Assembly: GCA_041484255.1 (NCBI GenBank) | Contig: JBGPHE010000001.1 | Coordinates: forward strand, 6,240-70,239 | Direction: 5' to 3' | Length of the DNA stretch: 64,000 nucleotides | From: Candidatus Nanoarchaeia archaeon | Lineage (GTDB): Archaea; Nanobdellota; Nanobdellia; Woesearchaeales; ARS49 | Shown: positions 23,627 through 59,900 of the stretch, piece after piece | Layout of the letters: the number at the start of each line of letters is the position of its first letter | How positions within the stretch are numbered: the first letter of the stretch is position 1 | Translations under genes and position numbers: made by a program | The notes under the pieces: generated by a model | What the model was told of the DNA's origin: nothing | What the model saw: only the letters and a program-made list of their open reading frames with translations | The model's database searches: none

Positions 23627-23917
23627 GTGAAAAAAGAGGGTGTTGAGAGTAAAGAGTACGAGAAATTCATACCGAGAGTCATCTTCACCTACTCGACGGA
23701 GCATCTTCTCAAGAAAGACAAGGTCAGATTCTATTACGCGCTGAAGGGCCGCGACGGAAAAACCGGCATCGTCAAGCGCTGCGCCATCGAACAGCTCGGC
23801 CGCACCGTGCTTCTCGTCCCGACGAAACACGCGGCAGATGTCGATGAATTCCTGAAGTACTGGAAGTGCGAATTCCAGCAGCGCCGCGTGCTCGTCGAGC
23901 CGGGAGTGGGCAAATGA
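23627..23917 (+). CDS. Small basic protein (96 aa) heading the giant-gene operon; GTG start, no internal Met
   Basis: ORF with GTG start 49 bp after TATA 23571-23578. Its TGA overlaps the ATG of giant gene 1 (ATGA at 23914-23917). Confidence 0.4.
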   Translation: MKKEGVESKEYEKFIPRVIFTYSTEHLLKKDKVRFYYALKGRDGKTGIVKRCAIEQLGRTVLLVPTKHAADVDEFLKYWKCEFQQRRVLVEPGVGK

Positions 23918-36738: not shown

Positions 36739-39700
36739 ATGGGGGACATGGGCAGAAACAGACGAGGGGTGGTGTCTGAACGGACGCTTATTGGCATTGT
36801 GCTACTTGCAGGGCTGCTCGGCATCGGCGTGATGCTCTGGGCGACGGGAATCGTCTCCTTTGCGCAGCAGCACGGCGTCACCGGCAGCGCGGTCGCGTCC
36901 ATCACCGGCCTCGCAGCGGATGATCTCGAAACGCAGCCGTCATTCACGGCCACGCCCGCTCCGAACACGGCGCCTATCTATAGAGGCCCTGCCAGCTTCA
37001 GCACGCCGCAGGACACAGCACTCACGATTGACTTGTCGCAGTACTTCTCCGATGCGGAAAACGACGAACTCACCTTCATCGCGTCGTCCGAAGACGTCAT
37101 CGCAGTCGCCATCGACGGCAACGCGCTCACGCTGACGCCTGCGGCAGGCTTCGCGGGCGAGCGTTCGCTGACCGTCATCGCGTCAGACGGCGTCAACCTC
37201 GCGCGCACGCCGGTCAAGATTGTCGTGGAAGGCACGCAGGCCACGCCGCCTGCACCGCAGCAGGAAGCTCCTGCGCCTGTGGAGCAGCCGCCCGCGACCA
37301 ACGAGTCCGCAGCGAACGAGACGCCGTTCAATACGCAGGAAGAAGAATTCACCAATCCTGTATTCAACACGCAAGTCACGAGCATCAGCGCCTGCACGAA
37401 CATCAGCACGCCGGGCGAGTACGCGCTCAGCACCGACCTCTCGCGGAACATCACCTGCATCGTCATCCAGACAGACAACGTGAGCTTCAGCTGCGCAGGC
37501 CACACTATCACCTGGGACACGCAAGGTCTGCGAAACATCTCAGGCTTCACGAGCTTCATCTCCGCGATCAACATCAACAAATCAGGCAGGACGCTCTTCA
37601 ATGTCACAGTCAGGGACTGCCGCCTGATCGACGGCACTGTCGGCGGATTCAACGACCACGCGATCGTGCTGCAGGACACGAACGATTCGCTCATTTTCAA
37701 CAACACCCTCGTTGCATCCGGCGAGACGTCGCTGGGAATTGAGATTGTTCGGACGGGAAACATCAACATCTCAAGCAACCGCATCAATGCGTCGTCGTTC
37801 GGAGGCGCTCAGGCGATCGCCAACGCGATCCAGTTCAATCTTTTCAGCAATAATGTCAGCATCTCCGACAATGACATCCGCGGATTCCTTTCCGGCAGCG
37901 GAATCAGGACGGTCGGCGTGATGGTTGACGCGACCTCGAATCCCCACGATGTGGAAGTCGTCGGGAACAGTATCACCGTCAACTCGACCGGTGGAAGCGC
38001 AACCTCAACAGGGATGAACGGCGTCACCGGCTTCGGCACATTCCTCAACGCGACCAACAATGACGTGCAGGCGTTCGGCTCAGGACCGAGCGGCGTGCTG
38101 GCAAATGGGGCGTTCTTCAACCGCATCCTCGCGCGGGGTTCCACCGCAGAGGGTCTGCGTGTCGGAGAGCTTGCAGACTCCAATAATATCACTGTGAATG
38201 GCAGCACCACTGGCGCGCTCGTGGGGTTTAACGGCAACTCGACATACAGCAACAACCGGCTCATCGCGACCGGCAGCTGGATATATACTTCCTTGAACGG
38301 GAACACTACTTTCATCAACACCACGTTTGTCAACGCAAATGGCACCCTCCTGTTCTACAATTTCTACATTGATGATGTCGTCATTGTCCAGCAGAGCGAC
38401 CTCAATACCACCATCAACCACGCCTATGTGAACAGCGTCGACTTCCCGTTCCTGAACACGAGCGCGGAGATCTTCCTGCAAGGATTCAATCTCACGAACA
38501 ACAAGCCCGTGGTCGACTACACGGACACCAACCACTTCCAGGGCTGCCCGGACACCTGCACGCTGCTCGAGACGGGCGACAACTTCATCCGCTTCACCGT
38601 CACGCACTTCACGACCTACTCGTCTTCGGACCTGGTCCTGCTGCTCGAAAAGTCCGACAGCACCGACCCGGTGCGCATCGGCTCGCTGTTCAATTACAGC
38701 GTCGCCGTGAGCGTGCTGAACGGCAACGCGAACAATGTCACGCTCACCGACCTGTACCCGCTTGAAGTTGTCTTCAATTCCTCGCAGCCTGACCCGATCG
38801 ACGGCACGAACGACACGTTCATCCTGGGCAACCTGACCGAGAACACGACGTTCATAGTGAACATCACGGTGCAGTCGCTGACGAACGATTCAGGCATCGT
38901 CAACGTCACCAACGGCACCGTCATCAACAACACCGTGAACATCACGTTCCAGAACGACACGAGCGACGTGTTCACGCTGAACGACACCGAGGAGACGACG
39001 CTCGTTGAGGCGACCGAGAACTTCGAGCCGCTCTCGGACTGCGCAGTCATCAATACCAGCTCGTTCCTGACGACGAGCGTTTCGGGCACGGGCACGTGCA
39101 TCACCATCGGCAATAACAGCATCACGCTGGAATGCGCAGGGAACACGATAACGTATGCGACAACAGGCCCGGGAAGCGCTATTTTCGCGGAAGACAAGTA
39201 TAATTTCACGGTGCGGAACTGCACGCTCGTGCTCGGCGACCTCAACAGGCTCTCCCTGTATGACTCGCCAGCCATCAACGCGACGAACACCACGAGCGGA
39301 GTCAACAACCGTATCGACGGCTCCTCGTTCCGCCTGCTCAATTACTTCTACCAGGACGGTTTGCCGCAGCAGAACTGCGGCGACCTCTCATTGAATGACT
39401 CAGCCTTCACCGGCAACGCCACGTGCACGAACATCACCTTTGTTGCGCGGGCGCGTATCAGGGTGAACTCGACCGCGGTCTCCAACAACTCAATCGCGTT
39501 TATCACGGACAACTTCCTGCTCGGGGTGCGCGCGTTCATCAACGCGAACGGCACCGGATACCCTGGAGGCGCGGATGGTAATGCGAACGGCTCCGGCCCC
39601 GGAGGCGGCATCGACCCGGTCAGTATCAATCGCGGCGGCGGCGGCGCAGGACACGGCGGAATCGGCGGCCAGAGCAATGTGCCGCAGGGCGCAGGCGGAA

Positions 39701-42700
39701 GGCCGTACGGCAGCTCCCTGAGCCCGATGACGCCCGGCAGCGGCGGCGCAACCGGTGACGGCGGCACCCACACCGGCGGAAACGGCGGCGGCGCGGTCTC
39801 CATCTTCGGCCAGAACGTCGTGCTGAACGGTGTCATCAGTGCGAGCGCAGGCAATGGGTCTGACGGCACCAATTCCGGCGGCGGCGGCTCGGGAGGAAGC
39901 ATCCTCGTGGTCGCAAATACGCTCTTCGGAAACGGCAGCTTCACTGCGCGCGGCGGCTTCGGCGGCAATGACCAAAGCACAGGAATCCAGTCCGGCGGCT
40001 CGGGCTCGGGTGGCCACATCGCAGTGAAGTTCAACACGAGCACGATGAATATCACGAGCGCGCACGCGCCCGGAGCGGAGAACGTGACCGCATTGGTCAA
40101 TCTCGGACAGCCGGGAACGGTCGGTTTCCTGGACATGGACGACAGCATCCTGTCCATCACTGAAGGCTGGAGATGGTCCAGCGAGGACGCGGCAGTCTGG
40201 AACTACACCGTCATCAACCTCACGAACGCGTACACGCACACGAACGAGAGCACGGTGAACATCACCGCAGTCCTGATTGTCCTGCACAACGCGAGCATCA
40301 GCAAAGAGAACGTGACCACCGGCATCGACGTCAATGTCTCCCTCACCATAAGCGCGGAGAATTTCGTGATGGACCCCTCGGAGATTGACGGAGCAGTCAT
40401 CAATATCACCGCAGGGAACTTCACGCTGGGCGCAGACTCGCTCATCAATGCGACCGGCACGGGCTTTGAAGGCGGTTTCAATGGCAATTCGAATGGTTCC
40501 GGTCCCGGAGGCGGCATCGATCCGGTCAACTTCAACCGCGGCGGCGGTGGAGCGGGCCACGGCGGCATCGGCGGCCAGAGCAATGTCGTCCAGGGCGCGG
40601 GCGGCAGGCCGTACGGCAGCGCGCTCAACCCGTTCACCTTTGGAAGCGGCGGGGGAACCGGCGAAAGCGGCAACCACCCAGGCGGAAACGGAGGCGGCAT
40701 CGTCATTATCAGCGCGAGCCACATCATTCTCAATGGCACCATTAATGCAGACGGCGGCAATGGGTCTGACGGCACCAATTCCGGCGGAGGCGGCTCGGGC
40801 GGCTCCATCAATATCATCACCGATGCGCTTGAGGGCAGCGGCAACCTGAGCGCGCGCGGCGGCTATGGCGGATGGGACCAGAGCACAGGCATCCAAGCCG
40901 GCGGCTCGGGAGCGGGCGGCCACATCATCGCGCGGTTCAATGCCAGTACGTTCCCGGTGACCAACGCGCACGTCGAACAAACAGAGAACGTCTCCGGGCT
41001 GGGCTTCTTCAGCCAGCCGGGAACGCTCGGCTTCATCGACATCGACGACGACATCCTCACGATTGTAGAAGGCTGGCGATGGACAAGCGAGGACACGGAC
41101 GTCTGGAACTTCACCGTCATCAACCTGAGCAATGCGTACACGCGCACGAACGAAAGCGCCGTGAGCGTCGATGCGCTGCGGTTCACGCTGGAGAACTCGT
41201 CGATCACCCAGGAAAACCTGACCTTCGGCATCCACGTGAACACGACATTCAGCGTCAATGCGAGCGTGGTGCTGATGAACCGCTCGCTCATCGTCAACCT
41301 GACGGTTGTGAACATCACCGCGGCGGACGTCACCATCCTCGAAGACGCAGCCATCAACCTGACCGGCACGGGCTTTGAGGGTGGCTTCAACGGCAACTCC
41401 AACGGCTCAGGTCCCGGTGGAGGCATCGACCCGGTTAACTTCAACCGCGGCGGCGGTGGAGCGGGCCACGGAGGCATCGGCGGCCGGAGCAATGTCGTCC
41501 AGGGCGCAGGCGGCAGGCCGTATGGAAGCTCGCTCAACCCGCTCACCTTGGGCAGCGGCGGGGGAACCGGCGAAAACGGCAACCACCCTGCAGGAAACGG
41601 CGGCGGCCTCGCCATCATCAGCGGCACACGCGTGAATATCAGCGGAACGGTAAGCGTGGACGGCGGCAATGGAACTGACGGCACCGATTCCGGCGGCGGC
41701 GGCTCAGGAGGAAGCATTTTCATCACCGCAGACTCCTTTGACGGCACCGGCGGATTGCTCTCGAGCGGCGGCTTCGGCGGCTGGGACCAGAGCACAGGCA
41801 TCCAGTCCGGCGGTTCGGGCGCGGGCGGACACATCATCGCGCAGTTCAACACCAGCACGTTCCCCATCGCCAACGCGCACGTCACCGGAACGGAAAACGT
41901 CAGCGCGCTGGTCTTTTACAGCCAGCCCGGAACGCTCGGATTCATTGATATCGATGACGATACGCTCACGATTTCAGAAGGCTGGCGCTGGACAAGCGAG
42001 GACACAGACGTCTGGAACTTCACCGTCATCAATGTGACCGACGCGTTCACCCGTTCGAATGACAGCAGCGTGACTATCTCCTCAGGCACGCTCACGTTCA
42101 CCAATGCGTCGTTCACGCAGGAGAACCTGACGGTCGACTACCAGCTCAACCTGACGCTCAGCGCCGCCGCAGACACCATCGCGCTGAACAATTCGCTCAT
42201 CACCAACCTCACACAGGTGAACCTCAGCGCAGGCAACCTGAGCGTGCAGGATGATGCAGTCATCGCCGTCGTCGGGACAGGATTTGCCGGCGGCGCAATC
42301 AGCCAGAACGGTTCCGGACCGGGCGGTGGCGTCATCAATGACGGCTTCACGCGCGGCACCGGCGCAGCACACGGCGGCAAGGGAGGACAGCCGGCAGGAG
42401 GAATCATCACGGTCGCGCGCGGCCCGTACGGAAGCACACTGAATCCTGACACGCTCGGTTCGGGAGGCTCGGGAAGCGCGCAGACGCCCGGCGGCTCAGG
42501 CGGCGGCGTCATCTTCATCAGCGCGGCGCGCGCAAGCATCAACGGCACGCTCAACGCGGACGGCGCGAACGGCACGGACGGATCAAGCGTCAACACCGGC
42601 GGAGGAGGCTCGGGAGGCAGCATCGCCATCGTCGCAGGAATCTTTGAAGGCACCGGCACCATCACTGCCCGCGGAGGAAACGCAGGAACGTCGTTCTTCG

Positions 42701-45700
42701 CGGACGCGTCAAGCGGCGGAGCAGGTGGAGGACGCATCATCGTGCGGTTCAATACCAGCACGTTCCCCGTCGCGCAGGCGTCCGTGGCCGGCGGCCAGAA
42801 CGGAAGCGGATCATCGTCAACGGGCGAGCCCGGAACGCTCGGCTTCCTCGACATCGACAACGACATCCTCACCGTTGTGGAAGGCTGGCGCTGGCAGAGC
42901 GACGACAAGAGCATTTGGAACTTTACCATCATCAATATCACCGACGCGCTCACGCGCGCAAATGACACCACGCTGAACTTCTCCGTGGGAACGCTCGTGA
43001 TGAGCAACGCCACCCTGCGCGCGGACAACGCGAGCGGCAACATCACACTCTTCATCAACATCTCCGCGGCCAATGTCTCGCTCCTGGATGGCGCGTTCAT
43101 CCTGCTGAACGGCTCGGGCTTTATGGGCGGCGCAATCAGCCAGAACGGTTCCGGACCGGGCGGCGGCGTCATCAATGACGGCTTCACGCGCGGCACGGGC
43201 GCATCCCATGCAGGCAAGGGAGGACAGGCGGCAGCAGGAATCATCTCGGTCGTGCGCGGCCCGTACGGCAGCTCATTGAATCCTGACACGCTCGGAAGCG
43301 GAGGCTCGGGAAGCGCGCAGACGCCCGGCGGCTCGGGCGGCGGAACGATCGCAATCAGCGCCGCGCGCGTGAGCGTCAACGGATCCATCATTGCCGATGG
43401 CGTGAACGGCACATCTGGCTCGAGCGTCAACACCGGCGGAGGAGGCTCGGGCGGCTCCATCAACATCATCACCGGCATCTTCGAGGGCAATGGCACGCTC
43501 AGCGCGCGCGGAGGCGATGCGGGAGTGTCGTTCTTCGCGGACGCGTCCAGCGGCGGAGCAGGCGGCGGACGCATCATCGTGCGCTTCAACACCAGCGCAT
43601 ATTTCCTTTCGCGCGCGGCAGTGACCGGCGGGGAGAACGGAAGCGGGAGCTCCTACCGGGGCCAGCCGGGAACGCTCGGATTCTATGACGTTGACGATAA
43701 CGTGCTCACCCTGCAGGAGGGCTGGAGATGGGAGCAGGAGGACGAGCCGATGAGCTTCGGCAATGTCACGACAAACCACACGCTCATCTTCAGCAACGCG
43801 ACCGTGCTCGTGACGGACACGTTCCGCGCAAACCGCATCAACTGGAGCGCGGACGAGAACCAGACGACGGTGTTCAACACGTCGCGCCTCATCATCGGCA
43901 ACTCGAGCGTGAACGCAACGGGAAGGCTCGTGTTCATTTACAGCAGCCAATTCAACGACAGCAACACGCTGTATCTCCAGGGCGCAAACTTCTCGCTGGA
44001 AAACCAGACCGTCGCGCGCGTCTCGTGGACCGAGTTCAGCGCGAACGTCGGCAACATCAGCGCGCGGACGCGGCTGCAGACGCGCAGGGCCTTCGTGAAC
44101 GCGACCGGCATGCAAGGCATGAACACGACGGCGAACATCACGTTCTTCGGTGTGAACTTCGGCACGCCCAAGGCGCAGGTCGACCTCGCGGACACCGGAA
44201 CGTTCGTGAACTGCGTGCCGTTCATCAACCCGTTCTGCACCACGCAGAGCTATGCGGACAATGTCTTCACGTTCAACACCTCGCACTTCACCACCTATAC
44301 TGTCGTGGAAGGAGGCGTTTCGCTTGCCCTGACCAAGACCGATACCCCTGACCCTGTGTTTGCAGGCAACACGCTGAGCTATGCAATACTGCTCAACCTC
44401 ACCGCGCAGGACGCGTTCAATGTCACGCTCACCGACATCTATCCCAACCAGACTATTTTCGTGAGCGCAGAGCCGTCGCCCATCAGCGGAACGAACAACA
44501 CATTCATCGTGGGCAACCTGACTGAGAACGATACGTTCATCATCAACATCACCGTCATGGTGCGTTCGGATACGTCGAACGGCATCGACATCAACAACAC
44601 GGCAAACATCAGCTTCCAGAACAGCACCGGCGCGATGTTCACGGCAAATGTCACGGAAAGCACGCACGTGGTGACGTCCAACAGGCCCGTCATCGCGCAG
44701 GTCATCCTGAACACGACAGATGTCACGCTGAACGACACCAACCAGAACCTGACCCTGTTCATCATCAACGCGACCGACGCGGACGATAACACCGTCTGGA
44801 ACATCACCGACTTCCGCAGGAACAACATCAGCATCGCGGTCGTGAACTACGCGTTCGAGACCAATATCAGCACGGTCTCGGCAAGCGTCCGCGACTACAG
44901 CACGTACAGCGCGAACGGCACGCTGGGCACTGCAGGCCAGAATCCCACGTGGAACCTCTCGGGACCGCTGGGCGGCGCGTACTACTTTGACGGCAATGAC
45001 TTCATCACCGCACCTGCGACCGCGCCGACCCTCCCGCTGACGTTCGAATTCTGGGTGAAGCCAGCGACGAGCAGCCCTGTCGGCATCTTCGACACTGCGC
45101 CTGGCTCGGGCGGCGTGCTGCGCAACTTCCCCGGTGGAGTGATTGAATGGCACGGCGGCGACCCCACGCTCGCCCTTGACGTGGTCGGCGGCAACTGGTA
45201 CCACATCGTGCTTATCTTCAGCTTTGACGGCGCACGGCACATCACGTATTACCGCAACGGCACGTTCATCGCGACCGCCAATGGCAGCGCGAGCAGCGGC
45301 TTCGCGTGGACGACGATGCGGCTGGGCGACATCAACAACGGCGGCGCAGGAACGTATACTGGCGAGATGAGCGAATTCCGCGTCTACAACCGCTCGCTCA
45401 CCGCATCAGAGATCGAACAGCTGTACATCGAGGGCGTCGCAGGAAGGCACCCGCAGATCATCACCCGCGGCAACACCGTCGCAGGCGATGTCTGGCAGGC
45501 CTGCGCCACGCCGAACGACAACAACCTCACCGGAAGCAGCGGCGATGGCACGACTGTCTGCAGCAACAACGTCACCATCAACAGCGTGCAGACGGTCGCG
45601 CCGGTCATCGCGCAGGTCATCCTCAACTCGACCGACCCGAGCAAGAACGACACCAGCCAGAATCTCACCTTGTTCGTCATCAACGCGACCAGCGCCAGCA

Positions 45701-48700
45701 ATGCTGCGGTGCGGAACATCACCGACTTCCGCAGGAACAACGTGAGCATCGCAGTCGTGAACATGCCGTTCGAGACCAATGTCACCAGCGTCGCGACCGG
45801 ACTCATTCGCGACTACGGGACCTGGGGCAACAACGGCACGCTGGGCGGCGGCACCGCGGCGAACGCCCCGCTCTGGAACAACTCCGGCAAGGTCGGCGGA
45901 GACTATGTCTTTGACGGAAGCAACGACTTCATCTCACTCACCGAGCCGCCTGCGGGCTCCACCAACCTCGCCAACGGCAGCGTCTTTGCGTGGATACGCA
46001 CGGCAAACGCGGGCGCGAGCTACCGCGGCATCGTGATCAAGCAGGACGCCTATGGTATGTTCCTGCTGGACAATGTGTTCATCATCCACGACTGGAACGC
46101 CGCGGCCGACCGCACCACGGGCATCAATGTCGCGGACGGCGAATGGCACCTGGTCGGCTTCACGTTCCAAAGCGGGGTCGCGGGCGGCACCAAGCTGTCC
46201 ATCGACGGCCAGATCAACCTGACCACAACACTCACCATCAACTCGCAGAGCGAGGGAATCGTCATCGGCGCAGGAGACAACCCCGGCACCCTCCAGTTCT
46301 TCGGCGGCCAGATTGACGAAGTGATGGTCTTCAATGGCACGCTCACCCCGACGCAGATAAGCCAGCTCTACCAGGACGGCATCCAGAACAAGAGCCTGGA
46401 CGTGATCACCGCGGACGAGCTCGCGGCAGGCGATGTCTGGCAGGGCTGCGCAACTCCGAACGACAACATCAGCGACGGCAACACCACCTGTAGCAACAAC
46501 GTGACCATCCTTGCGGTACAGAACGGCACGAATGTCGCGCCAACCATTGCGCAAGTCATCCTGAACACGACGAACCCGTTGCTGAATGACACGAACCAGA
46601 ACCTGACCGTCTTCATCATCAACGCGACGGACGCGAATGGCGATGCAGTGCAAAACATCACGGACTTCCGCACGAACAACTTCAGCATTGCCTTGCTGAA
46701 CATGCCGTTCGAGACGAACGTCAGCTCCGTGAGCGCGCGCGCGATCAGGGACTACTCCACCGATGAGGCAAATGGAACGCTCGGCAATGGCGCCGCAGGA
46801 CAAGCGCCCGTCTGGGACACGCAGTGCAAGGTTGGCGGATGCTACCAGTTCGACGGAACCGACGACTATATTGATGTCGGCAACGAAAGCCTCTTCGACA
46901 TCGAATTCAATCAGCCATTCACGCTTTCCTCCTGGATAAACACCACGAACAGCGCGAACGACGACTTCATCATCGCAAAGGAAGAGAACAGCGGAAACTT
47001 CAGGGGATACTACTATTTGATTGACAACGGAGCGGGCGGTGTTATCAACTGCCTCATTGAGAGCAGTGCCGCCAATCTCATTCAAGTGCGAGGCTCCACC
47101 GTCGTGCGCGACGGCAGCTGGCACAATGTCGTCTGCGCATATAACGGCTCAGGGACCGCGGCAGGAGTGACTCTCTACGTTGACGGCAACCTCGAGTCGA
47201 TGACGACCGTGAGCGACAACCTTGCAGGCAACACCATTCTGAACAATGTCGATGTCACCATCGGCTCACGGGCTTCGGCAGGAGTGCCGCTCCAGGGACG
47301 CGTCGACGAGGCATACATCTTCAACCATTCGCTCTCTGCCGCGCAGGTCAAGCAGCTCTACCTCGACGGCAACGCGAGCAAGCACGTGATGACGATCGTG
47401 CAGCCGGAAACGCAGGCAGGCGACATCTGGCAGGCCTGCGCCACACCTAATGACAACCTCACGGACGGCAACACGACGTGCAGCAACAACGTGACCATCT
47501 TCGCGCAGCAGAACTCGACCTACAGCCCGCCGACCATCGCGCAGGTCATCCTCAACACCACGAATGTCTCCCTCAATGACACCAACCAGAACCTGACCGT
47601 CTTCATCATCAACGCGACCAGCGCCCAGAATTACTCCGTGCAGAACATCACGGACTTCCGCCGCAATGCGACAAGCATCGCAGTCATCAACCTGCCGTTC
47701 GAGACGAACGTCACGAACGCGACGCTGGGGAACGGCATCCGCGACTACAGCTCGTTCAACAACAGCGGCACGCTTGGCGGCGGAACGCAGGCGAACGCGC
47801 CGGTCTGGAACGCGACAGGCCAGATTGGCGGCTACTATGACTTTGACGGCACGAACGATTTCATCCAGTTCAACGACTCGCCCTCGCTGAGCATCGCAGG
47901 AAGCGCGCTGACCATGGAAGCATGGGTGCAGACGCCGGAATCGGCGCCGGCATTGTTCGACAGGATCGTGGTGAAAGAGGTCAACACAAACGCAGATCCG
48001 TTCATCAGGTATGCACTGTATCGCACCGGCGGCACAAACACAGTGAAATTCGGCGTTTCCACCGGCGGCGCAGGAACGATAGGCCAAGTCACAAGCAACT
48101 TCAGCATCCCGCTGAACACGTGGTTCCATATGGTGGGAACGTACGATGGCGCGAACCTGCGGCTGTACCTCAACGGCGAGCTGAACAACACCGTGGCAAA
48201 TACCGGCGCAATCGCCACGAGCACGACGCCGCTCGTCATCGGCGGCAACACGGAAATCAGCGACGAGTTCTTCAACGGCTTCATCGACGAAGTGCGCGTC
48301 TACAACCGCACGCTGACGCCCGACCAGATCAGGCAGGACTACCAGGCAGGCGTCGCGCACCACCAGCCGCTCATCATCGCGAGCAACGAGACCATTGCAG
48401 GAGATATCTGGTCTGCGTGCGCCACGCCGAACGACAACATCAGCGACGGCAACACGACGTGCAGCAACAACGTGACCATCACTGCGGTGCAGAACAACAC
48501 CGTGTTCAACCTGAGCAATGTCACGCTCACGAAGCTGGACAGCCCTGACCCGGTGAACGCGAGCAGCAACCTCAGCTATACTATTATTATCAACGCGACC
48601 GCTGACTCGCCGGCGAACATCACGCTGACCGACACTTACCCTGCGCAAGTCATCTTCCTGGACTCGCAGCCCAGCCCGCTGGCAGGAACCAACAACACGT

Positions 48701-51700
48701 TCATAGTGGGCAATCTGACCGAGAACAACACATTCATTGTCAATATCACTGTGTTGGTGCTGAATGTGACGAACGGCACCGTCATCAACAACACGGCGAA
48801 CATCAGCTTCCACAACCAGACCGGCTCACAGGTCGCCGTGACTGCGACACAGAGCACGACCGTGCTCGCTGCCCCGAACGCCACGTTCAACTCGAGCAAT
48901 ATCAGCGTCGTCAAGACCGACTTCCCCGATCCGGTCGAAAACGGCTCGCAATTGAGCTACACGATCGCGGTCGCGAGCAATGGCAACGGCACGGCGTACA
49001 ATGTGACCGTGAACGACACGTATCCGCCGCAGGTCGTCTTTGATAGTGCCCAGCCAAGCCCGCTCGCAGGAACGAACAACACATTCATCCTGGGCAACCT
49101 CACCGCGGGAACGAACATCCTCATCAATATCACGGTAAACGTCTCCGGCAGCGTGCCGAACAACACACTCATCAATAACACGGTGAATGTGACGTTCCAG
49201 AACGAGACCAGCGACGTCCTGAGCCGCATTTCGACGGCAAGCACGCAAGTCATCGTAATCATCAGCACGCTGACCGGCTGCCCCGTGACCATCAATGAGA
49301 CCACGACACTGACGCAAAGACTGCAGAGCAATAGCTCGTGCATCACGTTCGGCACGGACAACATCTCGCTGGACTGCTCGGGCTTCAGCATCGGCGGCAA
49401 TTACTCCGGCAACGGCATCTCCGCAACGAACCGGCTGAACATCAGCATCAGGAACTGCTTCATCGAGAACTTCACGACCAACATCATCCTCCAGGGAACG
49501 AACCGGAGCACGGTCGCCAGCAACATCGCGCGCAACTCCAGCCAGCAGAGCATGGAAATCCAAACCAGCGCGCACGACTCCATCGAAAATAACACTGCAC
49601 AGAGCAGGACGAACGTCGGCATCAATGTCACGACGGGAATAAACGTCACGCTGGCGAACAACAACGGGACGTCTGTCTCGGGCGTGGGCATCAGCATCGA
49701 CACGGGAAGCGTCAACAATACGCTCACCAACAACAACGGAACCAGCACGTCAGGACAGGGCATCTTCCTGTCGTCAGCGTTCAACAACACGCTCAGGAAC
49801 AACAAGGCAACCACTGCAGGCGCGCCTTCTGCGCTCCAGCTGTCAAGCAGCAACGGCAATCTGCTGGTGAACAACAGCGGAATCCATACGGGCTCAGGCG
49901 CGGGAATCGCAATCTCTGTCAGCGACTACAACGTGCTGGTGAACAACACCGGAATCGGCAACCAAGGCATTGCGCTTGGGGACATAAACTCAGACTGGAA
50001 CAATTTCACGAACAACATCGGCCAAGGAACGAGCTTGGGCGCGAGTGTCAGCGCGAGCCAGAACAACACGTTCGTCAATAACACGTTCGCGACAAACACG
50101 GGAACAAGCATTACGCTGGCAGGCCTTGCAGGCACTGCCGCACTCAACAACACGTTTACGAATACGACGCTGTTGACTAATGGGACGTGGTTCTCTACGA
50201 ACGGCGACGGCCTGAACAATTCGTTCACCAACACTGTGTTTGTCAGCTTCAACGGCACCATCCGCATCCTGCCGACCGTGCAGCTGCCCAACGCGACCAC
50301 GGTGGACGTCCGACAGCTGAATGTCTCGTTCAACCGTGCGCACCTGAACTCGAGCAACCTGTCCTTCCTCAATACGACCGGCCAGATCACGCTCACGGGC
50401 GCCGTGAGCAACCAGCCGCTCGTTGACTTCGAGGACGACAACACGTTCACGCTCTGCGACGCAAGCATCTGCACCGTGCAAAGCTTCGCAGGCGGCGCGC
50501 TCATCTTCAACGTGACGCACTTCACGACGTACTCGTCGACCGCGGGCAACTCCAACTTGACGCTCACGAAGACTGACTCGCCAGACCCGGTCAATGCGAG
50601 TAGCAACCTGAGCTACCAGATTTCGGTCAATGTCACGTCCGACAGTCCGAGCAACATCACGCTGACTGACCAGTATCCTGCGCAGGTGATCTTCCTGACC
50701 GCGCAGCCGTCGCCCATCACGGGAACGAACGACACGTTCATCATCGGTAACCTGACGAACGGAAGCTCGTTCAGCGTCAACATCACTGTGCTCGTGCTGA
50801 ACGTGACGAACGGCACCGTCATCAATAACACGGCGAACATCAGCTTCCAGAACGCGTCCGGAGTCACGTTCTTCGCGACCGTGACCGAGAACACAACGGT
50901 GCGCGCACAGGTAATCCAATTCAACCTCACGAATGTCACGCTGACCAAGACCGACTCGCCCGACCCGGTCAACGCGAGCGGCATCCTGAACTATACTGTA
51001 ACGGTGAATGCGACCGCGGACTCGCCTGCGAACATCACGCTGACTGACCAGTACCCTGCACAAGTCATCTTCTTGAGCGCCCAGCCTTCACCGCTTGCAG
51101 GAACGAACAACACGTTCATTGTGGGCAACTTGACCGCGGGCCAGGCGTTCATCGTGAACATCAGCGTGCTCGTGCTGAACGTGACCAATGGCACGATTAT
51201 CAATAACACTGCCAATATCACCTTCACCAACCAGACCGGAAGCGTGCTGACGCTCAACGCGACACAGTCGACGACTGTGCTTGCGGCCGGCAACGCCACG
51301 TTCAACAACAGCAACATCTCGGTCACGAAGATTGACGCTCCTGACCCGGTGAACACGAGCGCGCAGCTGAACTACACCATCAACGTGACGAGCAATGGCA
51401 ACGGAACCTCGTACAATGTGACTGCGAACGACACATACCCTGCGCAAGTCATCTTCTTGAGCGCCCAGCCGACGCCGCTGGCAGGAACCAACAACACCTT
51501 CATCCTAGGCAACCTGACCGCAGGCCAGAGTGTCCTGATTAACGTGACCGTGCTGGTGCTCAACATCAGCAACGGCACGCTCATCAACAACACCGTGAAC
51601 GTGACATTCCAGAACGAGACCAGCGCAGTGCTCAGCAGGATTGCGAGCACGAGCACGCTGGTCATCAACCTCACCTTCACGCCGCTCTTCAACGCGAGCA

Positions 51701-53570: not shown

Positions 53571-53728
53571 ATTCATGAACAATCGTTCATATGAATAGCC
53601 AGATGGAAAAATTCTTAAACTAAACTCCACCTACGACGCGCGGGGTGAGTAAATTGAAGGGGATAGACCACTGTCTACGCTTTACTTCTTTTTGCTCCAC
53701 GATACGTTCATATGAATTTTCATATGAA
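53571..53728. promoter_or_regulatory. Cluster of palindromic motifs in the AT-rich region upstream of the AbrB-like gene and giant gene 4
   Basis: CGTTCATATGAA at 53584-53595 and 53705-53716, TTCATATGAA at 53719-53728, TTCATGAA at 53573-53580. TATA-like TATTATATA at 53555-53563 and TTTATCAAAA at 53759-53768. Confidence 0.45.
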
Positions 53729-53785: not shown

Positions 53786-53965
53786 GTGGGTTTAACCAGA
53801 AAGCTTCAGCGGACGAAGAAAGATCAGTATACGCTGACGATTCCAAAAGCATTAGTGGAACTGCTCAACCTCAAGGAGCAGGACGAGATCGAGTTTAACC
53901 TTGTTGACGGCAATATCACGCTGAAGAAGTCGGCGCGCAAGCGGGGTGAGAAGGATGCGAAGTAA
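53786..53965 (+). CDS. AbrB/MazE (SpoVT-AbrB, swapped-hairpin) family small DNA-binding protein (59 aa), GTG start
   Basis: Translation VGLTRKLQRTKKDQYTLTIPKALVELLNLKEQDEIEFNLVDGNITLKK... matches the AbrB-type pattern (..tiPk.l.e.l.l..gd.v....dg..i.L.k). GGGGAG lies 8 nt upstream. Under 60 aa, so absent from the ORF track. Overlaps the giant gene 4 start by 11 nt. Confidence 0.5.
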   Translation: MGLTRKLQRTKKDQYTLTIPKALVELLNLKEQDEIEFNLVDGNITLKKSARKRGEKDAK

Positions 53966-56900
53966 GCGCGCAGCCCTCTCGGACAGGCTTCTTATCGGGC
54001 TTGTCCTCCTTGCAGGCGTTTTCGGCATCGCAGTGATGCTCTGGGGCACGGGAATCATTACCGCTCCGCAGTTCGGCAGCGGCGCAGTCACGGGAAGCGT
54101 CGTTGCAACGCCTGCAGCGTCGCCTATCACTGGAATGGACGCAGCAGCAGTCGTCAATGAAGCGCCAATCTATACAGGACCTGCAAGCTTCAGCACGCCG
54201 CAAGATACGGCGCTCACCATTGATTTGTCGCAGTACTTCTCTGACCCCGAGCACGATGAGCTTTCGTTCAGCGCGGCAGAGGAAGACCAGATTGCGGCCG
54301 CGGTTGACGGCAGCCTGCTCACGCTCACGCCCGCAGCAGGCTTCGCAGGCGAACGCACGCTCACTATTGTTGCGTCTGACGGCGTCAATGTCCTGCGCGC
54401 GCCGGTCAAGATTGTCGTGGAAGGCACGGCAGCGCCTGAACAGCCGCCCGCGCCTGCACCGAGCGCGCCGCAGCCAGAACCGCAGCCGCCTGCGCCAGTG
54501 ACGCAAAACGCGACACAGCCGCCTGAAATCACCACAAGCGACTTCACCAATCCAGGATTCACCTCGCAGGACGTCATCACGTCCTGCCCGGCGACGATGA
54601 ACACCAGCACGGTGCTGACGCAGAGCATTACGTCGACGACCACGTGCATCACGTTCGGCGCGGACAACATCGCGCTGGACTGCGCGGGATTCAATATCAC
54701 GTTCGGCACCGGCGGCGGCTCGGCAAACGGCATTGTCGCGCGCAATCGCACCAATGTCACAATCACCGGCTGCACCATCCGCGACACGAACGCGGCAGGA
54801 ACGTTCGGCATCGGCATCAACTTCACGAACGTCAACAACAGCCTTATCGTCAACACCAGCGTATTCACCAACGGCACCAACGACGACTACGGCATCTACT
54901 TTGTCTCGAACGACAGCAACAACACCGTCACCAATGTGAGCGTCTTCGCGCGCGGCACCTCCATCAACAACATCGGCATCTACTTCATCACCAACGCGAA
55001 CAACAATACCGTCGACAACAGCACCATCAGCGGGTTAAGCACGGCGAACGTCAACAACCACGGCGTCAGGATTGAGGCTGCCTCGTCCAACAACCTTTTC
55101 ACGAACAACACGGTCAGGACAAACGGAAGCAGCAGCGACTTCGGCTTCTACCTCTTCAACAACGTCACGCTGAACACTATCGCGAACAACAATATCACCG
55201 CGGACGGCACGAGCGGCACGAATATCGGCATCCGCCTGGAGGGCTCGGGCAACGGCGGCGTCAACAGCAATTTCATCGCGAACAACACGATCCAGACCTT
55301 CCCGCCCGGCGCGAGCAACAACTACGGCATCTACCTCTTCACGTCGGTCTCGAACAACATTGTCACGAACAATACCGTCCGGACGAACGGCACGTCGACG
55401 AATGTCGGCATCCGGCTCGAGAGCACGGCCAGCAACAACACGGTCGCGAACAACAACATCACGGTGCGCGGCACGGGCTCCAACAATAATGGCGTCCTCC
55501 TGACCACCACTGCGAACAACAACACCGTCGCCAACAACACGATTGACATGAGGGCGGGAACCACCACGAACGACGGCATCCTGCTGCAGACCACTGCCAA
55601 CAACAACACCATCAGCAATAACAGCATCATGATTGCGCAGATGTCGTCAACCGACAACCGCGGAATCGTATTGTTTAGCACCGCGTTCAACAACATCCTC
55701 GTCAACAACACCATCAACACGACGGGAACAATCAATAATTACGGCATCGTCCTGAGCACGAACGTCGGCAACACGACCATCGCGAACAACAGCATCCAGA
55801 CGAACGGCAGCAGCATCAATTACGGCATCTGGCTGACGGCGGTTTCAGACAATACCACCATCGCAAACAACCTCATCACGACCGCGGGAGCCGACAGCTA
55901 CGGCATCCGCCTGGACAACAGCCGCGGAAACAACATCACAGGCAACAACATCACCAGCGCGCAGTATGACGGCTTGTTCATCGAAGGAACCGACATCACG
56001 CACTTCACGAACAACACGATCACCAGCTCAAACACCATCAACGGCTCGCCCATCTTCTACTATGGCGGCGCGTACGACTCGCCGGCCTGCCCGAACAACC
56101 AGCTGCTGCCGGTTAACGGAACGGCATCGCACATTGACTTCCTGGGCTGCAACAACGTGACGCTGACCAATTACACTAGTATCGAGGTGCTCACGCTGGT
56201 GAACACCAGCAACATGACCATCACCCAAATCCAGCAGCGCAGCAGCAAGTACGGCATCCGCGTGTTCTTCACGACCGGCCCGAACAACATTTCATTCAGC
56301 AACATCACTGCGTCGAACACGACGGTCTCGGACAATTACGGAGTGTACCTGCTGGTCGCGGGCAACACGACCATCGCAAACAACAACGTCACGACCATAA
56401 GCGCTCTGGCGAACAACCACGGCATCTACCTGCTCACGAACGCGACCAACAATACGGTTGCGAACAACATCGTGAACACGACCGGCACGAGCAACAACAA
56501 CGGCATCCGCGTCGAAGGCAATGGCAACAACAACACCATCGTAAACAATACAGTCAGCACCAAGGGCTCGAGCACGAACAACTACGGCATCGTCCTGTTC
56601 AATACCGCGTCCGGCAACCTGGTGCTGAACAACACGGTCAGGGCGAACGGAAGCAGCAGCGATTACGGCATCTATGTCATCACTGCTGCGAGCAACAACA
56701 CGGTCGCGAACAACAGCATCACCACGGACGGCACGAGCGGCACGAACATCGGCATCCGCATTGAGGGCGCGAACAACGTTCCGGTCGTCAACAACCTCGT
56801 GGCGAACAACCTGATCCAGACCTTCCCACCGGGCGCGAACAGCAACTACGGAATCCAGCTGGTTACGGTCGTATCGAACAATATCATCACGAACAACACC

Positions 56901-59900
56901 ATCCGCACGAACGGCACATCCATAACCCAAGGCATCCGGCTGGAAAGCGTCGTCGGCAACAACACGGTCGCGAACAATAATATCACGGTGAGGGCTTCGG
57001 GAACGCTCAACCACGGCATCTATATGCTCTCCACGGCGAACAACAACACCATCGCCAACAACACGATCGACATCAGGGGCGGCACGACCACCAACAACGG
57101 CATCCGCGTGGAGGCAATCGCCAACAACAACACGCTCAACAACAATACCATCACCATCGCGATGATGTCCGGCAGCGACAACTACGGCATCTATTTGTTT
57201 AACGCCGCGTTCAACAACATCGTCATCAACAATACGGTGAATACCAGCGGAACCACCAGCAACATCGGCATCTTCCTCTTCACCAATGTCGGCAACGCGA
57301 TCATCGCGAACAACAGCATCCAGACCAATGGCAGCAGCATCAATTACGGCATCTATATGGTCACGCAGGCGGACAACACCACCATCGACAACAACATCAT
57401 CACGACTGCGGGCGCCGACAGCTACGGCATCAGGATGGACAACAGCCGCGGCAACAACATCACGCGCAACAATATCACCGGCGCGCAGTATGACGGCTTG
57501 TTCATCGAAGGAACCGACATCACGCACTTCACGAACAACACGATCACCAGCTCAAACACCATCAACGGCTCGCCCATCTTCTATTACGGCGGCGCATACG
57601 ACTCGCCCGCGTGCCCGAACAACCAGCAATTGCTCGTCAACAACACCGCGTCGCACATCGACTTCCTGCGATGCAACAACGTCACGCTGACAAACTACAC
57701 CAGCATGGAGGTCTTGTCGCTCATCAACACGAGCAACATGACGATTACCCAAATCCAGCAGCGCAGCAGCAAGTACGGCATCCGCGTGTTCTTCACGACC
57801 GGCCCGAACACTATCAGCAACAGCAACATCACCGCGTCGAACACGACGGTCACGGACAACTACGGCATCTTCGTGTCGGTCGCAGGCAACACGACCATCA
57901 TCGGCAACAACGTCACCACGATGAGCGCACTGGCGAACAACCACGGCATCTACCTCGTCACCAATGTCACCAACAACACGGTCGCGAACAACATCGTGAA
58001 CACGACCGGCACGAGCAACAACAACGGCATCCGCGTGGAAGGCAATGGCAACAACAACACGATTGTGAATAACTCAGTCAACACGAAGGGCTCGGGCGCG
58101 AGCAACTACGGCATCGTCCTGTTCAACACCGCGTCCGGCAACATGGTGCTGAACAACACCGTCAGGGTGAACGGAAGCAGCAGCAACTTCGCAGTCTATG
58201 TCATCACCCAAGCGAGCAACAACACCATCGCCAACAACAACATCACCGCCGACGGCCCGAGCGGCAGCAACATAGGCATCCGCCTCGAGGGCGCGGGTGG
58301 CAACGTGCCGCCGATCACGAACAACCTCATCGCGAACAACACGATTGCGGTGCTTCCGCAGAGTGCCAGCACCAACTTCGGCATCTATCTTATTACGGTT
58401 GTCTCGAATAATGTTATCACCAACAACACTATCCGCATAAACGGCACGAGCAACGACAGGGGCGTTCAGCTGGATAACACCGTCAGCAACAACACCATCG
58501 CAAACAACAATATCACCATGCGCACGACCGGCAGCGGCAACATCGCAGTCTATATCGTCACCGCCTCGCACAACAACACCGTCGCGAACAACAGCATCAC
58601 GATGTCGGGCTACGCGAACAGCAATCAGGGCATCCGCCTCGAGAGCACAGTCACCAACACCACCATCGCGAACAACACCATCTTCATGAACCAGTCGACG
58701 TCGAGCGACAACTACGGCATCCACTTCTTCAACACCGTCTTCAACAACAGCGTCACCGGCAACACCATCTTTGTCAACGCGACGACGAACGTGTACGGCA
58801 TCCTGCTCCAAAACACTGTCGGCAGCAGCTTCTTCGACAACAACAACCTCGCCACGCAAGGCACGACGCCCGGCTACGGCGTCTTCCTCTTAACCACGTC
58901 CACGGGGTCGTTCTTCAACCGCACAGTCCTGAACAACCCGACAGACTGGCTTGACGCAGACTCCACGTCGGCAGGAAACTTCACCAACACGACATTCCAG
59001 CAGCCGAACGGCAGCATCGCCATCCCCGGCAGGTTCCAATTCAACAACTCGGTGCTCCTGAAGAACAAGCTCAACATCAGCGCGAACAAGGCGTTCCTCA
59101 ACAGCACTGCCTTCGCCATCCTGAACCAGACGGGCATCATCACGCTGAACGGCGTGAACTCCAGCCAGCCGCGGCCCACCGCGGACTTCGATACCGGAAC
59201 GTTCGTCGACTGCCCCGCGACGCAGTGCACCGTCCTGAACTTCGCCAATAACGTCCTCACGTACAACACGACCGGCTTCACGACCTATTCCTGGGCGGAG
59301 AACGGGCTCAATATCTCGTTCACGAAGACCGACAATCCCGACCCCGTGAGCCCGGGCACGACGCTGAATTACACCATCACGTTCATGGTCAACACGGGCA
59401 ACGCGAGCAATGTCACGGTGACCGACCAGTATCCTGCACAAGTTATCTTCCTCAGCGCGCAGCCGTCGCCGCTCGCGGGAACGAACGACACGTTCATCGT
59501 CGGCAACCTCACGAACGGGACGAGCTTCAGCGTCAACATCAGCACGCAGGTGCTCGGCAATGCCGCGGGCCTGCGCCTCAACAACACCGCGAATGCCTCA
59601 TTCCAGAACGAGACCGGCGCGGCGCGCACGGTGAACGTGACCGAGGCCACCACCGTCCTCTCCATACCGACCATTGCGCAGGTCATCCTGAACACCACCA
59701 ACCCGCTCACGAACGACACCAACCAGAACCTGACCCTGTTCATCATCAACTCCTCCGATCCGGATAATGACATCACCAGGAACATCACCGACTGGCGCAG
59801 GAACGGCACGAGCATCGCGGTGACGAACTTCCCGTTCGAGACCAACACGAGCAGCACCGCCTCGAGCGCCATCCGCGACTACAGCACGTACCGGGCGAAC

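What the first reader, a model, noticed from the sequence alone, without database searches (positions are those of the whole stretch)
44690..48490. Arrays of LamG-like jellyroll units, each framed by conserved leader and two-Cys linker modules, in genes 3 and 4
Gene 3 has four units and gene 4 at least five (59672-64000), each about 300 aa. Every unit has three parts:
- a 60-aa leader: VILNTT..(NDTNQNLT).FIINAT......V.NITDFRRN..SIA..N.PFETN;
- a concanavalin-A-like/Laminin_G_3 core: ...YYFDG.DDFI...P.....FT.EFWV.P......WYH......G....YRNG...FRVYNRSLTA.EI.QLY;
- a linker: GDIW.AC.TPNDN..DGNTTCSNNVTI.

Tandem lectin-like domains point to multivalent carbohydrate or ligand binding, consistent with an adhesion or host-recognition role. 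Units are diverged at about 40-60% aa identity, so the array is old rather than a recent expansion.
Basis: partly seen in the sequence, partly recalled or inferred. Interest (0 to 1): 0.6.

Follow-up and report, generated by a model that had tools for sequence, protein, structure and literature searches.

The report
LamG domains nested in Ig-like scaffolds
Two giant, sugar-coated surface proteins of a tiny symbiotic-type (DPANN) archaeon carry rows of divergent LamG binding domains. Each LamG is spliced into a loop of a conserved Ig-like "stalk" domain, a tidy refinement of a known kind of putative host-attachment protein.

Summary
Gene 3 (36739-53535, 5,598 aa) holds four ~305-330 aa units at 44692-48516. 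Gene 4 holds four complete units and one cut unit from 59673 to the window end, and eight in the full-length database copy. All eight complete units hit Pfam Laminin_G_3 above cut-off.

The "leader" and "two-Cys linker" are not separate framing modules. They are the N- and C-terminal halves of one ~89-aa Ig/PKD-like beta-sandwich domain, with the LamG inserted into it.
- An exhaustive HMMER search finds this domain in 6,659 representative proteins.
- In the top 150 it is mostly uninterrupted and tandemly repeated, or else split by an insert of ~210 aa.
- AlphaFold2 models the whole unit as one rigid body (pLDDT 90.8, pTM 0.91).

The scaffold halves are conserved (68-69% identity) and rich in N-glycosylation sequons. 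The LamG cores are diverged (29%) and often closer to units in other genomes.

The host is an archaeon and the same unit recurs across DPANN lineages. The literature already proposes LamG-rich, heavily glycosylated giant proteins as DPANN host-attachment factors. The likely function, a multivalent adhesin, is therefore inferred and not new. The nested cassette and the scaffold domain, which no Pfam model captures, are the new part.

The parts
36739..53535 (+). Gene 3: 5,598-aa membrane-anchored giant surface protein. Order: N-terminal hydrophobic anchor/signal, cadherin-like segment, beta-helix, Gly-rich repeats, DUF11, four nested units, DUF11 array plus beta-helix, Cys-rich module, C-terminal TM helix, ~90-aa charged tail.
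   Evidence: Translation. Pfam hits on the parts. Called as a 5,598-aa gene on NCBI contig JBGPZU010000001.1. 375 N-X-S/T sequons against 127+/-10 in shuffles.
44692..45606 (+). g3 unit 1. Scaffold N-half 44692-44865, LamG insert 44866-45471, scaffold C-half 45472-45582, connector 45583-45606.
   Evidence: PF13385 E 2.3e-16. Sub-boundaries from the unit alignment. 71% identical to g4 unit 1.
45607..46545 (+). g3 unit 2. Scaffold N-half 45607-45780, LamG 45781-46416, scaffold C-half 46417-46512, connector 46513-46545.
   Evidence: PF13385 E 4.2e-16. Boundaries.
46546..47535 (+). g3 unit 3. Scaffold N-half 46546-46719, LamG 46720-47406, scaffold C-half 47407-47502, connector 47503-47535.
   Evidence: PF13385 E 1.1e-22. 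Boundaries.
47536..48516 (+). g3 unit 4 (the unit modelled). Scaffold N-half 47536-47709, LamG 47710-48387, scaffold C-half 48388-48483, connector 48484-48516. A DUF11 domain follows.
   Evidence: PF13385 E 6.3e-33. AF2 model m592035f06c2e: pLDDT 90.8, pTM 0.91. Boundaries.
53955..64000 (+). Gene 4 (cut by the window end). A paralogous giant surface protein: beta-helix/NosD repeats, DUF11-like segment, then the nested-unit array.
   Evidence: Translation. Pfam hits. The full-length product P0270 is 6,387 aa with eight units.
59673..60602 (+). g4 unit 1. N-half 59673-59846, LamG 59847-60458, C-half 60459-60569, connector 60570-60602.
   Evidence: PF13385 E 4.4e-18. Boundaries.
60603..61607 (+). 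g4 unit 2. N-half 60603-60797, LamG 60798-61478, C-half 61479-61574, connector 61575-61607.
   Evidence: PF13385 E 1.3e-24. Boundaries.
61608..62549 (+). g4 unit 3. N-half 61608-61781, LamG 61782-62438, C-half 62439-62534, connector 62535-62549.
   Evidence: PF13385 E 2e-26. Boundaries.
62550..63479 (+). g4 unit 4. N-half 62550-62723, LamG 62724-63344, C-half 63345-63440, connector 63441-63479.
   Evidence: PF13385 E 3.1e-27. Boundaries.
63480..64000 (+). g4 unit 5, cut by the window end. N-half 63480-63653, then the start of the LamG.
   Evidence: The unit is complete in P0270.

Best explanation
Each ~310-aa unit is a nested two-domain cassette.

A ~89-aa Ig/PKD-like beta-sandwich serves as the scaffold:
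- its C-half is the 'linker' and carries the last two strands, stapled by an all-or-none Cys pair.

A ~210-aa LamG (Laminin_G_3) jelly roll is inserted into one loop, probably the E-F loop.

In genes 3 and 4, four and eight cassettes are joined head to tail through 5-13-residue connectors. The scaffolds would form a rod-like segment covered by N-glycans, with at least five invariant N-X-S/T sequons per N-half. Each scaffold would display a different, sparsely glycosylated LamG head.

The proteins have an N-terminal hydrophobic segment (signal or anchor) and a C-terminal TM helix in the membrane of a DPANN-type archaeon. The array most likely acts as a multivalent, multi-specificity adhesin that binds glycans or proteins on a partner or host cell envelope.

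Shown here:
- LamG identity of the cores;
- homology of leader plus linker to an uninterrupted domain;
- the discrete ~210-aa insertion state;
- a confident single-body AF2 model;
- the conservation asymmetry between scaffold and core;
- the sequon enrichment.

Inferred, not shown:
- the exact insertion loop;
- the rod geometry;
- glycan occupancy and the disulfide;
- the ligand and the adhesion role.
For: LamG identity:
- PF13385 is above cut-off in 8/8 units.
- Foldseek top hits are lectin-like jelly rolls.

Nesting:
- Complete arrays start with the leader and end with the linker. This holds in gene 3 and in 39 other loci, including single-unit genes.
- A profile of the fused leader plus linker aligns across the junction to uninterrupted domains. 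P0138 gives hhalign probability 97%, E 1e-10. P0133 gives 97.5%, E 9e-12. P0127 is similar.
- An exhaustive HMMER search of 1.84 billion representatives gives 6,659 proteins at E<=1e-3.
- In the top 150 there are 1,504 uninterrupted copies (median 89 aa) and 403 half-only stretches. Where an N-half is followed by a C-half the gap is about 180-240 aa (median 210, n=133, only two below 180). At least 90 of 127 such gaps hold a LamG HMM hit.
- AF2 with a 41-sequence alignment gives mean pLDDT 90.8 and pTM 0.91. The leader blocks score 82-98 and the linker blocks 87-96. Strands fall at 3-8, 20-25, 36-43, 49-53 and 291-299, plus short ones at 304-316.

Cys pair: both Cys are present in 52 units and both absent in 99 of 151. 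No unit has only one.

Conservation asymmetry:
- Mean identity is 68%/69% for the scaffold halves and 29% for the core.
- Divergence at 4-fold sites is about equal in all modules, which argues for purifying selection rather than recent gene conversion.

Sequons:
- The leader has 12.3 per 100 aa and the core 2.7.
- Gene 3 has 375 against 127+/-10 in shuffles.
- Housekeeping proteins have 0-0.5 per 100 aa.

Archaeal host: thermosome, archaeal GluRS and FtsZ are in the window.

Distribution: the unit occurs in Woese-, Pace-, Nano-, Aenigmat-, Micr- and Iainarchaeota records.

Literature: LamG proteins are expanded in DPANN and proposed to mediate host attachment (PMC5498576, PMC7443923, PMC7414124, PMC6642349).
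Against: - I could not read the model coordinates or PAE, so direct leader-linker strand pairing was not seen. It rests on homology, strand count and pTM.
- Direct-coupling analysis did not separate same-unit from next-unit pairing.
- The fused scaffold has no significant Pfam or PDB sequence match. The best is Leptospira Lig Big_2 at E 0.04.
- No ligand-binding or Ca2+ site was identified in the LamG cores.
- The best structural neighbours (BoNT HcN) have no established sugar-binding role (my own knowledge).
- Conservation of LamG 'types' between genomes (35-54%) fits stable partners. It fits a structural envelope role equally well.
Confidence: 0.65

Rival explanations
1. One reading: three sequential, independent modules per unit. 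An N-terminal leader module and a C-terminal two-Cys linker module merely frame a LamG domain, like spacers.
For: The three segments are contiguous in sequence, and neither flank has a Pfam hit. AF2 with a shallow alignment gave no fold for the flanks.
Against: - The flanks are homologous to the two halves of a single uninterrupted 89-aa domain, which is the commoner form among the top 150 hits.
- Four leader strands alone or two linker strands alone are not a stable sandwich (inference).
- With a deeper alignment AF2 gives pTM 0.91 for the whole unit.
Confidence: 0.07
2. Alternative register: the linker of unit i and the leader of unit i+1 form one contiguous domain between successive LamG domains, with no nesting.
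For: They are adjacent in sequence and together have the right size (~95-105 aa). DCA couplings for next-unit pairs are as high as for same-unit pairs.
Against: - Arrays begin with an unpaired leader and end with an unpaired linker. Single-unit genes have L-G-K.
- In uninterrupted homologues the order within one domain is leader-like half followed by linker-like half, not the reverse.
- A single unit folds confidently on its own.
Confidence: 0.05
3. Same nested architecture, but a mainly structural role. The arrays would be part of a glycosylated envelope, S-layer-like coat or spacer that sets cell-cell distance, rather than specific adhesins.
For: - Extreme sequon density and membrane anchoring.
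- One PDB sequence relative is an 'S-layer domain-containing protein', 4qvs, E 1e-4.
- LamG types are conserved between genomes rather than hypervariable.
Against: - Eight different LamG heads per protein at 20-38% core identity is more diversity than a purely structural spacer seems to need.
- The uninterrupted scaffold already makes rods without LamG.
- The literature consensus favours host interaction (PMC7443923, PMC5498576).
Confidence: 0.2
4. The ConA-like cores are enzymes (glucanase-like) acting on host polysaccharide together with the neighbouring subtilase (gene 2) and phosphodiesterase/sulfatase-like protein (gene 1).
For: The ConA-like lectin/glucanase superfamily includes glycoside hydrolases. 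Genes 1 and 2 in the same cluster carry hydrolase domains.
Against: - Only Laminin_G_3 and related non-catalytic families are hit. No GH family appears.
- The structural neighbours are binding domains.
- No invariant acidic catalytic pair appears among the invariant columns.
Confidence: 0.03

Closest known systems
LamG / Concanavalin A-like domain proteins of DPANN archaea (e.g. arCOG07813; Mia14, Nanohalobium, Undinarchaeales proteins)
   Same: - Secreted or anchored archaeal proteins with Laminin_G_3 domains.
- Expanded in DPANN, with many N-glycosylation sites, and proposed to mediate host attachment (PMC5498576, PMC7443923, PMC7414124).
- Database relatives of the unit are named 'LamG domain-containing protein' from Woese-, Nano-, Pace- and Micrarchaeota.
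   Different: None of the papers read describes the repeating cassette, in which each LamG is nested inside a conserved Ig-like scaffold. None describes the contrast between conserved scaffold and diverged heads. The proteins here are among the largest of the kind (5,598 and 6,387 aa).
SPEARE proteins of Nanohaloarchaeota (PMC6642349)
   Same: Giant (3,300-8,500 aa) DPANN surface proteins. They are mostly extracytoplasmic with a TM helix near the C-terminus, carry at least one laminin-G domain plus other adhesion domains, and are proposed to attach to the host.
   Different: [quoted passage not shown] Genes 3 and 4 have no protease or endonuclease domain. Their cytoplasmic tails are short or low-complexity. 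The subtilase lies in the separate gene 2.
Uninterrupted ~89-aa 'TPNDG' Ig/PKD-like tandem-repeat domain of bacterial and archaeal giant surface proteins (no dedicated Pfam model; weak Big_9/PKD_3/PKD_2 matches)
   Same: It is homologous to leader plus linker across the junction, at hhalign 97%. It shares the motifs D.DGD..., Y.W..NG and GD...V.VTPNDG..G...S..V.I, and is tandemly repeated up to ~35 times.
   Different: It has no LamG insert. The bacterial-context examples lack the conserved N-X-S/T sequons and the Cys pair.
Clostridial neurotoxin Hc N-terminal lectin-like jelly roll (PF07953) and PAPP-A LamG-like module
   Same: These are the best structural matches to the modelled unit: 2vxr at E 4e-12, TMq 0.51, ~243 aligned columns. 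Several sequence relatives also carry precomputed PF07953 hits.
   Different: Sequence identity is 11-18%. There is no beta-trefoil partner domain and no toxin context. The resemblance is at fold level only.
AbnA domain 4 of Geobacillus stearothermophilus arabinanase (5ho0/5hon)
   Same: It is the closest solved sequence relative of a LamG core, at E 1.4e-5 over ~78 residues. It has a ConA-like sandwich with a structural Ca2+ and is proposed to act as a carbohydrate-binding module (PMC9110388).
   Different: The match is partial and weak. AbnA domain 4 is appended to a GH43 enzyme and is not nested or arrayed.

Membership tests
Laminin_G_3 (PF13385), ConA-like lectin/glucanase superfamily | Profile-HMM score above the curated gathering threshold | tested here: met
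   8/8 complete units score 60-115 bits against a cut-off of 27.6.
Laminin_G_3 (PF13385), ConA-like lectin/glucanase superfamily | Two-sheet jelly-roll beta-sandwich fold | tested here: met
   The AF2 core has pLDDT mostly 84-99 with about 13 strands. 491 PDB matches have E<=0.001, and the top-ranked are ConA-like jelly rolls.
Lectin (carbohydrate-binding LamG/CBM) | Identifiable sugar- or Ca2+-binding site, or demonstrated glycan binding | not testable with these tools
Only framework residues are invariant (G99, F103, G105, W130, W196, G214, G236, N257, L260). Glycan arrays are needed.
Ig/PKD-like beta-sandwich (E-set) scaffold domain | Homology of leader plus linker to a contiguous single domain | tested here: met
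   hhalign gives 97% for P0138 and 97.5% for P0133, both across the junction. There are 1,504 uninterrupted copies in the top 150 hits.
Ig/PKD-like beta-sandwich (E-set) scaffold domain | Significant match to a curated PKD/Big/cadherin Pfam model or to a solved Ig-like structure | tested here: not met
   The fused halves have no Pfam family above cut-off. The best PDB match is Lig Big_2 at E 0.04 and a PKD domain at E 0.17. Uninterrupted relatives give only summed weak Big_9/PKD_3/PKD_2 scores.
Ig/PKD-like beta-sandwich (E-set) scaffold domain | Six or seven strands from both halves packed in one sandwich | tested here: inconclusive
   The strand count (4 plus at least 2) and pLDDT 82-98 fit, and pTM is 0.91. 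Strand pairing could not be read, and DCA was not discriminating.
SPEARE proteins | Serine protease domain in the same polypeptide | tested here: not met
   Genes 3 and 4 have no protease hit. Peptidase_S8 is in the separate gene 2.
SPEARE proteins | Cytoplasmic type III restriction-enzyme-like domain after the C-terminal TM helix | tested here: not met
   The gene 3 tail is ~90 aa, charged, and has no Pfam hit. The P0270 tail is Lys/Pro-rich and low-complexity.
SPEARE proteins | Giant, mostly extracytoplasmic protein with laminin-G adhesion domains and a C-terminal membrane anchor | tested here: met

The most novel reading that the evidence does not exclude
The nested Ig-LamG cassette may be a dedicated display platform of DPANN archaea.
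- A slowly evolving, glycan-shielded, disulfide-stapled scaffold is kept homogeneous within a genome.
- Ancient, distinct LamG 'heads' are slotted into it and possibly exchanged between lineages.
- Each giant protein would then carry a combinatorial panel of receptors that determines host range.

The discordance between scaffolds and cores would be its signature. Scaffolds have their nearest neighbour in the same genome in 52 of 96 units, and cores in only 29 of 96.
Probability: 0.2. Interest if true: 0.65.

Novelty: new variant of a known kind. Interest (0 to 1): 0.4.

Why it matters
DPANN archaea are thought to depend on physical attachment to hosts, yet the molecules involved are largely unassigned "LamG domain-containing" giants.
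- Recognising the repeat as a nested cassette gives correct domain boundaries for expression, structure work and binding assays.
- It defines a widespread ~89-aa scaffold domain (6,659 representative proteins) that no current Pfam model captures.
- It shows which part is constrained (the scaffold) and which part carries the diversity (the LamG heads). The heads are the part to test for host specificity.
- The function itself is not new and not proven here.

Tried and rejected
- AF2 on unit g3_u4 with a 15-sequence alignment. The leader and linker had pLDDT <50, so it was uninformative. A 41-sequence alignment solved this.
- Pfam and PDB sequence searches with the fused leader plus linker gave nothing significant. 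The same was true for uninterrupted P0127, P0133 and P0138.
- Mean-field DCA on 151 fused scaffolds. The top coupling was the Cys pair, a positive control. Leader-linker couplings exceeded random re-pairing, but the next-unit control was equally high when sample sizes were matched. It therefore cannot decide the register.
- The first mixed alignment for the exhaustive search misplaced the end of the leader (A6). I rebuilt it with truncated leaders (A7).
Gene 2 gave the source contig instead.
- tRNA and Rfam scans of the window found nothing.
- Recent gene conversion as the cause of scaffold conservation was rejected. Synonymous-site divergence equals that of the cores.
- SPEARE membership was rejected: no protease or endonuclease domain in genes 3 and 4.

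Full report
**What is there**

The window carries four consecutive plus-strand giant genes.
- Gene 1, 23866-27228: phosphodiesterase/sulfatase-like domain plus beta-helix.
- Gene 2, 27225-36731: subtilase plus DUF11.
- Gene 3, 36739-53535: 5,598 aa.
- Gene 4, from 53955 to beyond the window end.

The first 23 kb encode a thermosome subunit, an archaeal-type glutamyl-tRNA synthetase and FtsZ, so the host is an archaeon.

Gene 3 begins with a hydrophobic segment. It ends with a hydrophobic helix followed by a ~90-aa charged tail. This fits a membrane-anchored, largely extracellular protein.

**Check of the observation**

They recur five times in the window part of gene 4 (59673-64000, the last copy cut).
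- Units are 305-335 aa long.
- All eight complete units match Pfam Laminin_G_3 at E 2e-16 to 6e-33, far above the gathering score. The match covers roughly unit residues 103-265.
- Neither flank has a Pfam match.
- Overall unit identity is 32-48%, with g3_u1/g4_u1 at 71%. This is somewhat lower than the 40-60% stated.
- The full-length gene 4 product is in the protein library as P0270 (6,387 aa, 3347/3348 identical over the shared part). It has eight units.

**The unit elsewhere**

- A scan of one genome per GTDB species with the unit alignment returned 39 loci. They come from Woesearchaeota, Nanoarchaeia/Nanoarchaeota, Pacearchaeota and Aenigmatarchaeota records. Several bins labelled 'uncultured Methanosarcinales' also appear, and I do not trust that label.
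- Nearly all of these matches cover most of the unit.
- HMMs for leader (L), core (G) and linker (K) give the order L-G-K everywhere. Arrays reach 12 units.
- Arrays that are not cut by a contig end start with L and end with K. Single-unit L-G-K genes exist.
- A profile search of the 5.8-billion-protein collection found 373 proteins at E<=1e-10. Sources name them 'LamG domain-containing protein', mostly from DPANN lineages including Micrarchaeota and 'ainarchaeum'.

**Leader and linker are one split domain**

1. I fused leader and linker from 38 diverse units into one profile (A3) and searched with it. Besides fragments of ordinary units, it hit short proteins in which a leader-like half is followed within 15-25 residues by a linker-like half, with no LamG. 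These are P0138, P0133 and P0127.
2. hhalign aligns P0138 and P0133 straight across the fusion junction, at probability 97-97.5% and E 1e-10 to 9e-12.
3. I then made an alignment of three contiguous domains plus window leader halves and window linker halves as separate rows (A7). It was run exhaustively against 1.84 billion representatives. The result was 6,659 proteins at E<=1e-3 and 3,130 at E<=1e-10.
4. In the best 150 there are 1,504 uninterrupted full-span copies (median 89 aa, up to ~35 per protein) and 403 half-only stretches. Where an N-half is followed by a C-half, the gap is about 180-240 aa (median 210, n=133, only two below 180). 119 proteins are mostly uninterrupted and 26 mostly split.
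5. At least 90 of 127 such gaps contain a hit to my LamG-core HMM. The examples I inspected among the rest look like diverged LamG.

The domain thus exists in two discrete states: intact, or interrupted by one LamG.

Uninterrupted relatives get only weak summed Pfam scores to Big_9, PKD_3 and PKD_2. The fused halves get nothing significant in Pfam or PDB: Lig Big_2 at E 0.04 and a PKD domain at E 0.17. I therefore call the scaffold Ig/PKD-like but do not assign it to a curated family.

**Structure prediction**

- With 15 sequences AF2 modelled only the LamG core.
- With 41 sequences (window units plus unit-length substrings of database hits) the whole 327-aa unit came out at mean pLDDT 90.8 and pTM 0.91.
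- Leader strands lie at 3-8, 20-25, 36-43 and 49-53. The LamG runs from about 78 to 256, followed by a helix at 262-273. The linker has a strand at 291-299 plus short strands to 316.
- Four plus at least two strands is what one Ig-like sandwich needs. A pTM of 0.91 means the three segments are placed as one body.
- I could not read coordinates, so leader-linker strand pairing is inferred, not seen.
- From the hhalign register, the conserved 'SIAVLNMPFE' strand corresponds to the E strand of the uninterrupted domain. That places the insertion in the E-F loop, which is also an inference.
- Foldseek against the PDB returns lectin-like jelly rolls: the HcN domain of clostridial neurotoxins (2vxr, E 4e-12, TMq ~0.5, ~243 columns) and PAPP-A.
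- By sequence, the closest solved relative is domain 4 of the arabinanase AbnA (E 1.4e-5, partial). It has a ConA-like sandwich with a structural Ca2+ and is proposed as a carbohydrate-binding module (PMC9110388).

**Evolutionary pattern**

- Among the eight window units, mean identity is 68% for the leader, 69% for the linker and 29% for the core.
- At 4-fold degenerate sites of identical residues, third-base differences are 0.39, 0.40 and 0.43. The scaffold is therefore conserved by selection on the protein, not by recent gene conversion.
- Apart from the u1 pair, every window core has its best match in another genome (35-47%) rather than in the window (32-38%). Every window scaffold has its best match inside the window.
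- Over 96 units from 15 genomes, the nearest neighbour lies in the same genome for 30% of cores and 54% of scaffolds.
- The two linker cysteines are all-or-none: both present in 52 of 151 units, both absent in 99, never one alone. They are also the strongest DCA coupling. This fits a disulfide between the last two strands.

**Glycosylation signal**

- Genes 1-4 carry 5.5-6.8 N-X-S/T sequons per 100 aa, two to three times the shuffled expectation. Gene 3 has 375 against 127+/-10.
- Five housekeeping proteins have 0-0.5 per 100 aa.
- Within units, the leader has 12.3 per 100 aa with five invariant sequons, the linker 7.5 and the LamG core 2.7.
- The bacterial-context uninterrupted relatives I read lack these sequons.
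- Occupancy is not shown. The pattern suggests a glycan-coated scaffold with comparatively bare heads.

**Function**

Nothing here tests binding. The papers read report that LamG-like proteins are expanded in DPANN (PMC5498576). They describe large nanohaloarchaeal lectin-like proteins with many N-glycosylation sites as predicted host-specific attachment systems (PMC7443923). They propose Undinarchaeales LamG proteins as adhesion proteins (PMC7414124). They also note that SPEARE giants carry laminin-G domains (PMC6642349).

Genes 3 and 4 are not SPEARE proteins, because protease and endonuclease domains are absent.

The best-supported reading is a multivalent adhesin with several different heads. 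A mainly structural envelope role is the serious rival.

**Verdict**

This is a real, well-delimited feature of a known general kind. One substantive correction applies: it is a nested two-domain cassette, not three modules. A by-product is a widespread scaffold domain that no Pfam model captures. Interest is moderate.

Noticed in passing
53786-53965 (+) and 53586-53728: A 59-aa MazE/AbrB-type DNA-binding ORF (PF04014, E 6e-8) lies between genes 3 and 4. Its end overlaps the gene 4 ATG (53955) by 11 nt. The g3-g4 intergenic region holds three exact copies of the palindrome TTCATATGAA (53586, 53707, 53719). There are none elsewhere in the window, against an expectation of 0.03. These are candidate operator sites for a regulator of gene 4.
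   Followed up: partly
about 39400-44000 (+), gene 3 aa ~880-2400: Five ~330-aa repeats with Gly-rich segments (GGGGAGHGGIGG..., GGGGSGGSI...) and a conserved 'EGWRW..ED' motif. A two-repeat sample (39400-41400) and the whole N-terminal part of gene 3 gave no Pfam hit. This is an unassigned repeat family within the same protein.
   Followed up: partly
23866-64000 (+), genes 1-4: All four giant genes are enriched 2-3 fold in N-X-S/T sequons (5.5-6.8 per 100 aa). They are poor in Lys and Glu compared with housekeeping proteins of the window. Genes 1 and 2 add a phosphodiesterase/sulfatase-like domain and a subtilase to the cluster.
   Followed up: partly
gene 4 beyond the window (P0270, 6,387 aa): The full-length gene 4 product has eight nested units (aa 1909-4480). 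These are followed by DUF11-like repeats, a Cys-rich module, a TM helix and a ~330-aa Lys/Pro-rich repetitive cytoplasmic tail with recurring 'FYG.LRDLDK..' motifs.
   Followed up: partly
linker Cys pair, e.g. 48418-48420 and 48460-48462 in g3 unit 4: The two linker cysteines are strictly all-or-none across 151 units from many genomes: 52 with both, 99 with neither, 0 with one. The commonest replacement is Ala...Leu.
   Followed up: yes
loci L002-L040 and the window units: Scaffold halves tend to be most similar within a genome (54% of 96 units, 8/8 in the window). LamG cores tend to be most similar between genomes (70%). This suggests scaffold homogenisation or lineage-specific constraint, or exchange of heads.
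   Followed up: partly
L004, L006, L007, L010 and others; P0162, P0188, P0204: Many loci with this DPANN-type unit come from bins titled 'uncultured Methanosarcinales archaeon'. A few proteins are labelled Gammaproteobacteria, Eisenbacteria or Daviesbacteria. These may be mislabelled or misbinned, or may reflect transfer.
   Followed up: no
whole window: The window matches NCBI contig JBGPZU010000001.1 (GCA_041493925.1, 87,567 bp) and a JGI metagenome contig (3300052987). The closest unit matches are in a ~57% G+C groundwater Woesearchaeota bin, in line with the window's 55-63% G+C.
   Followed up: partly
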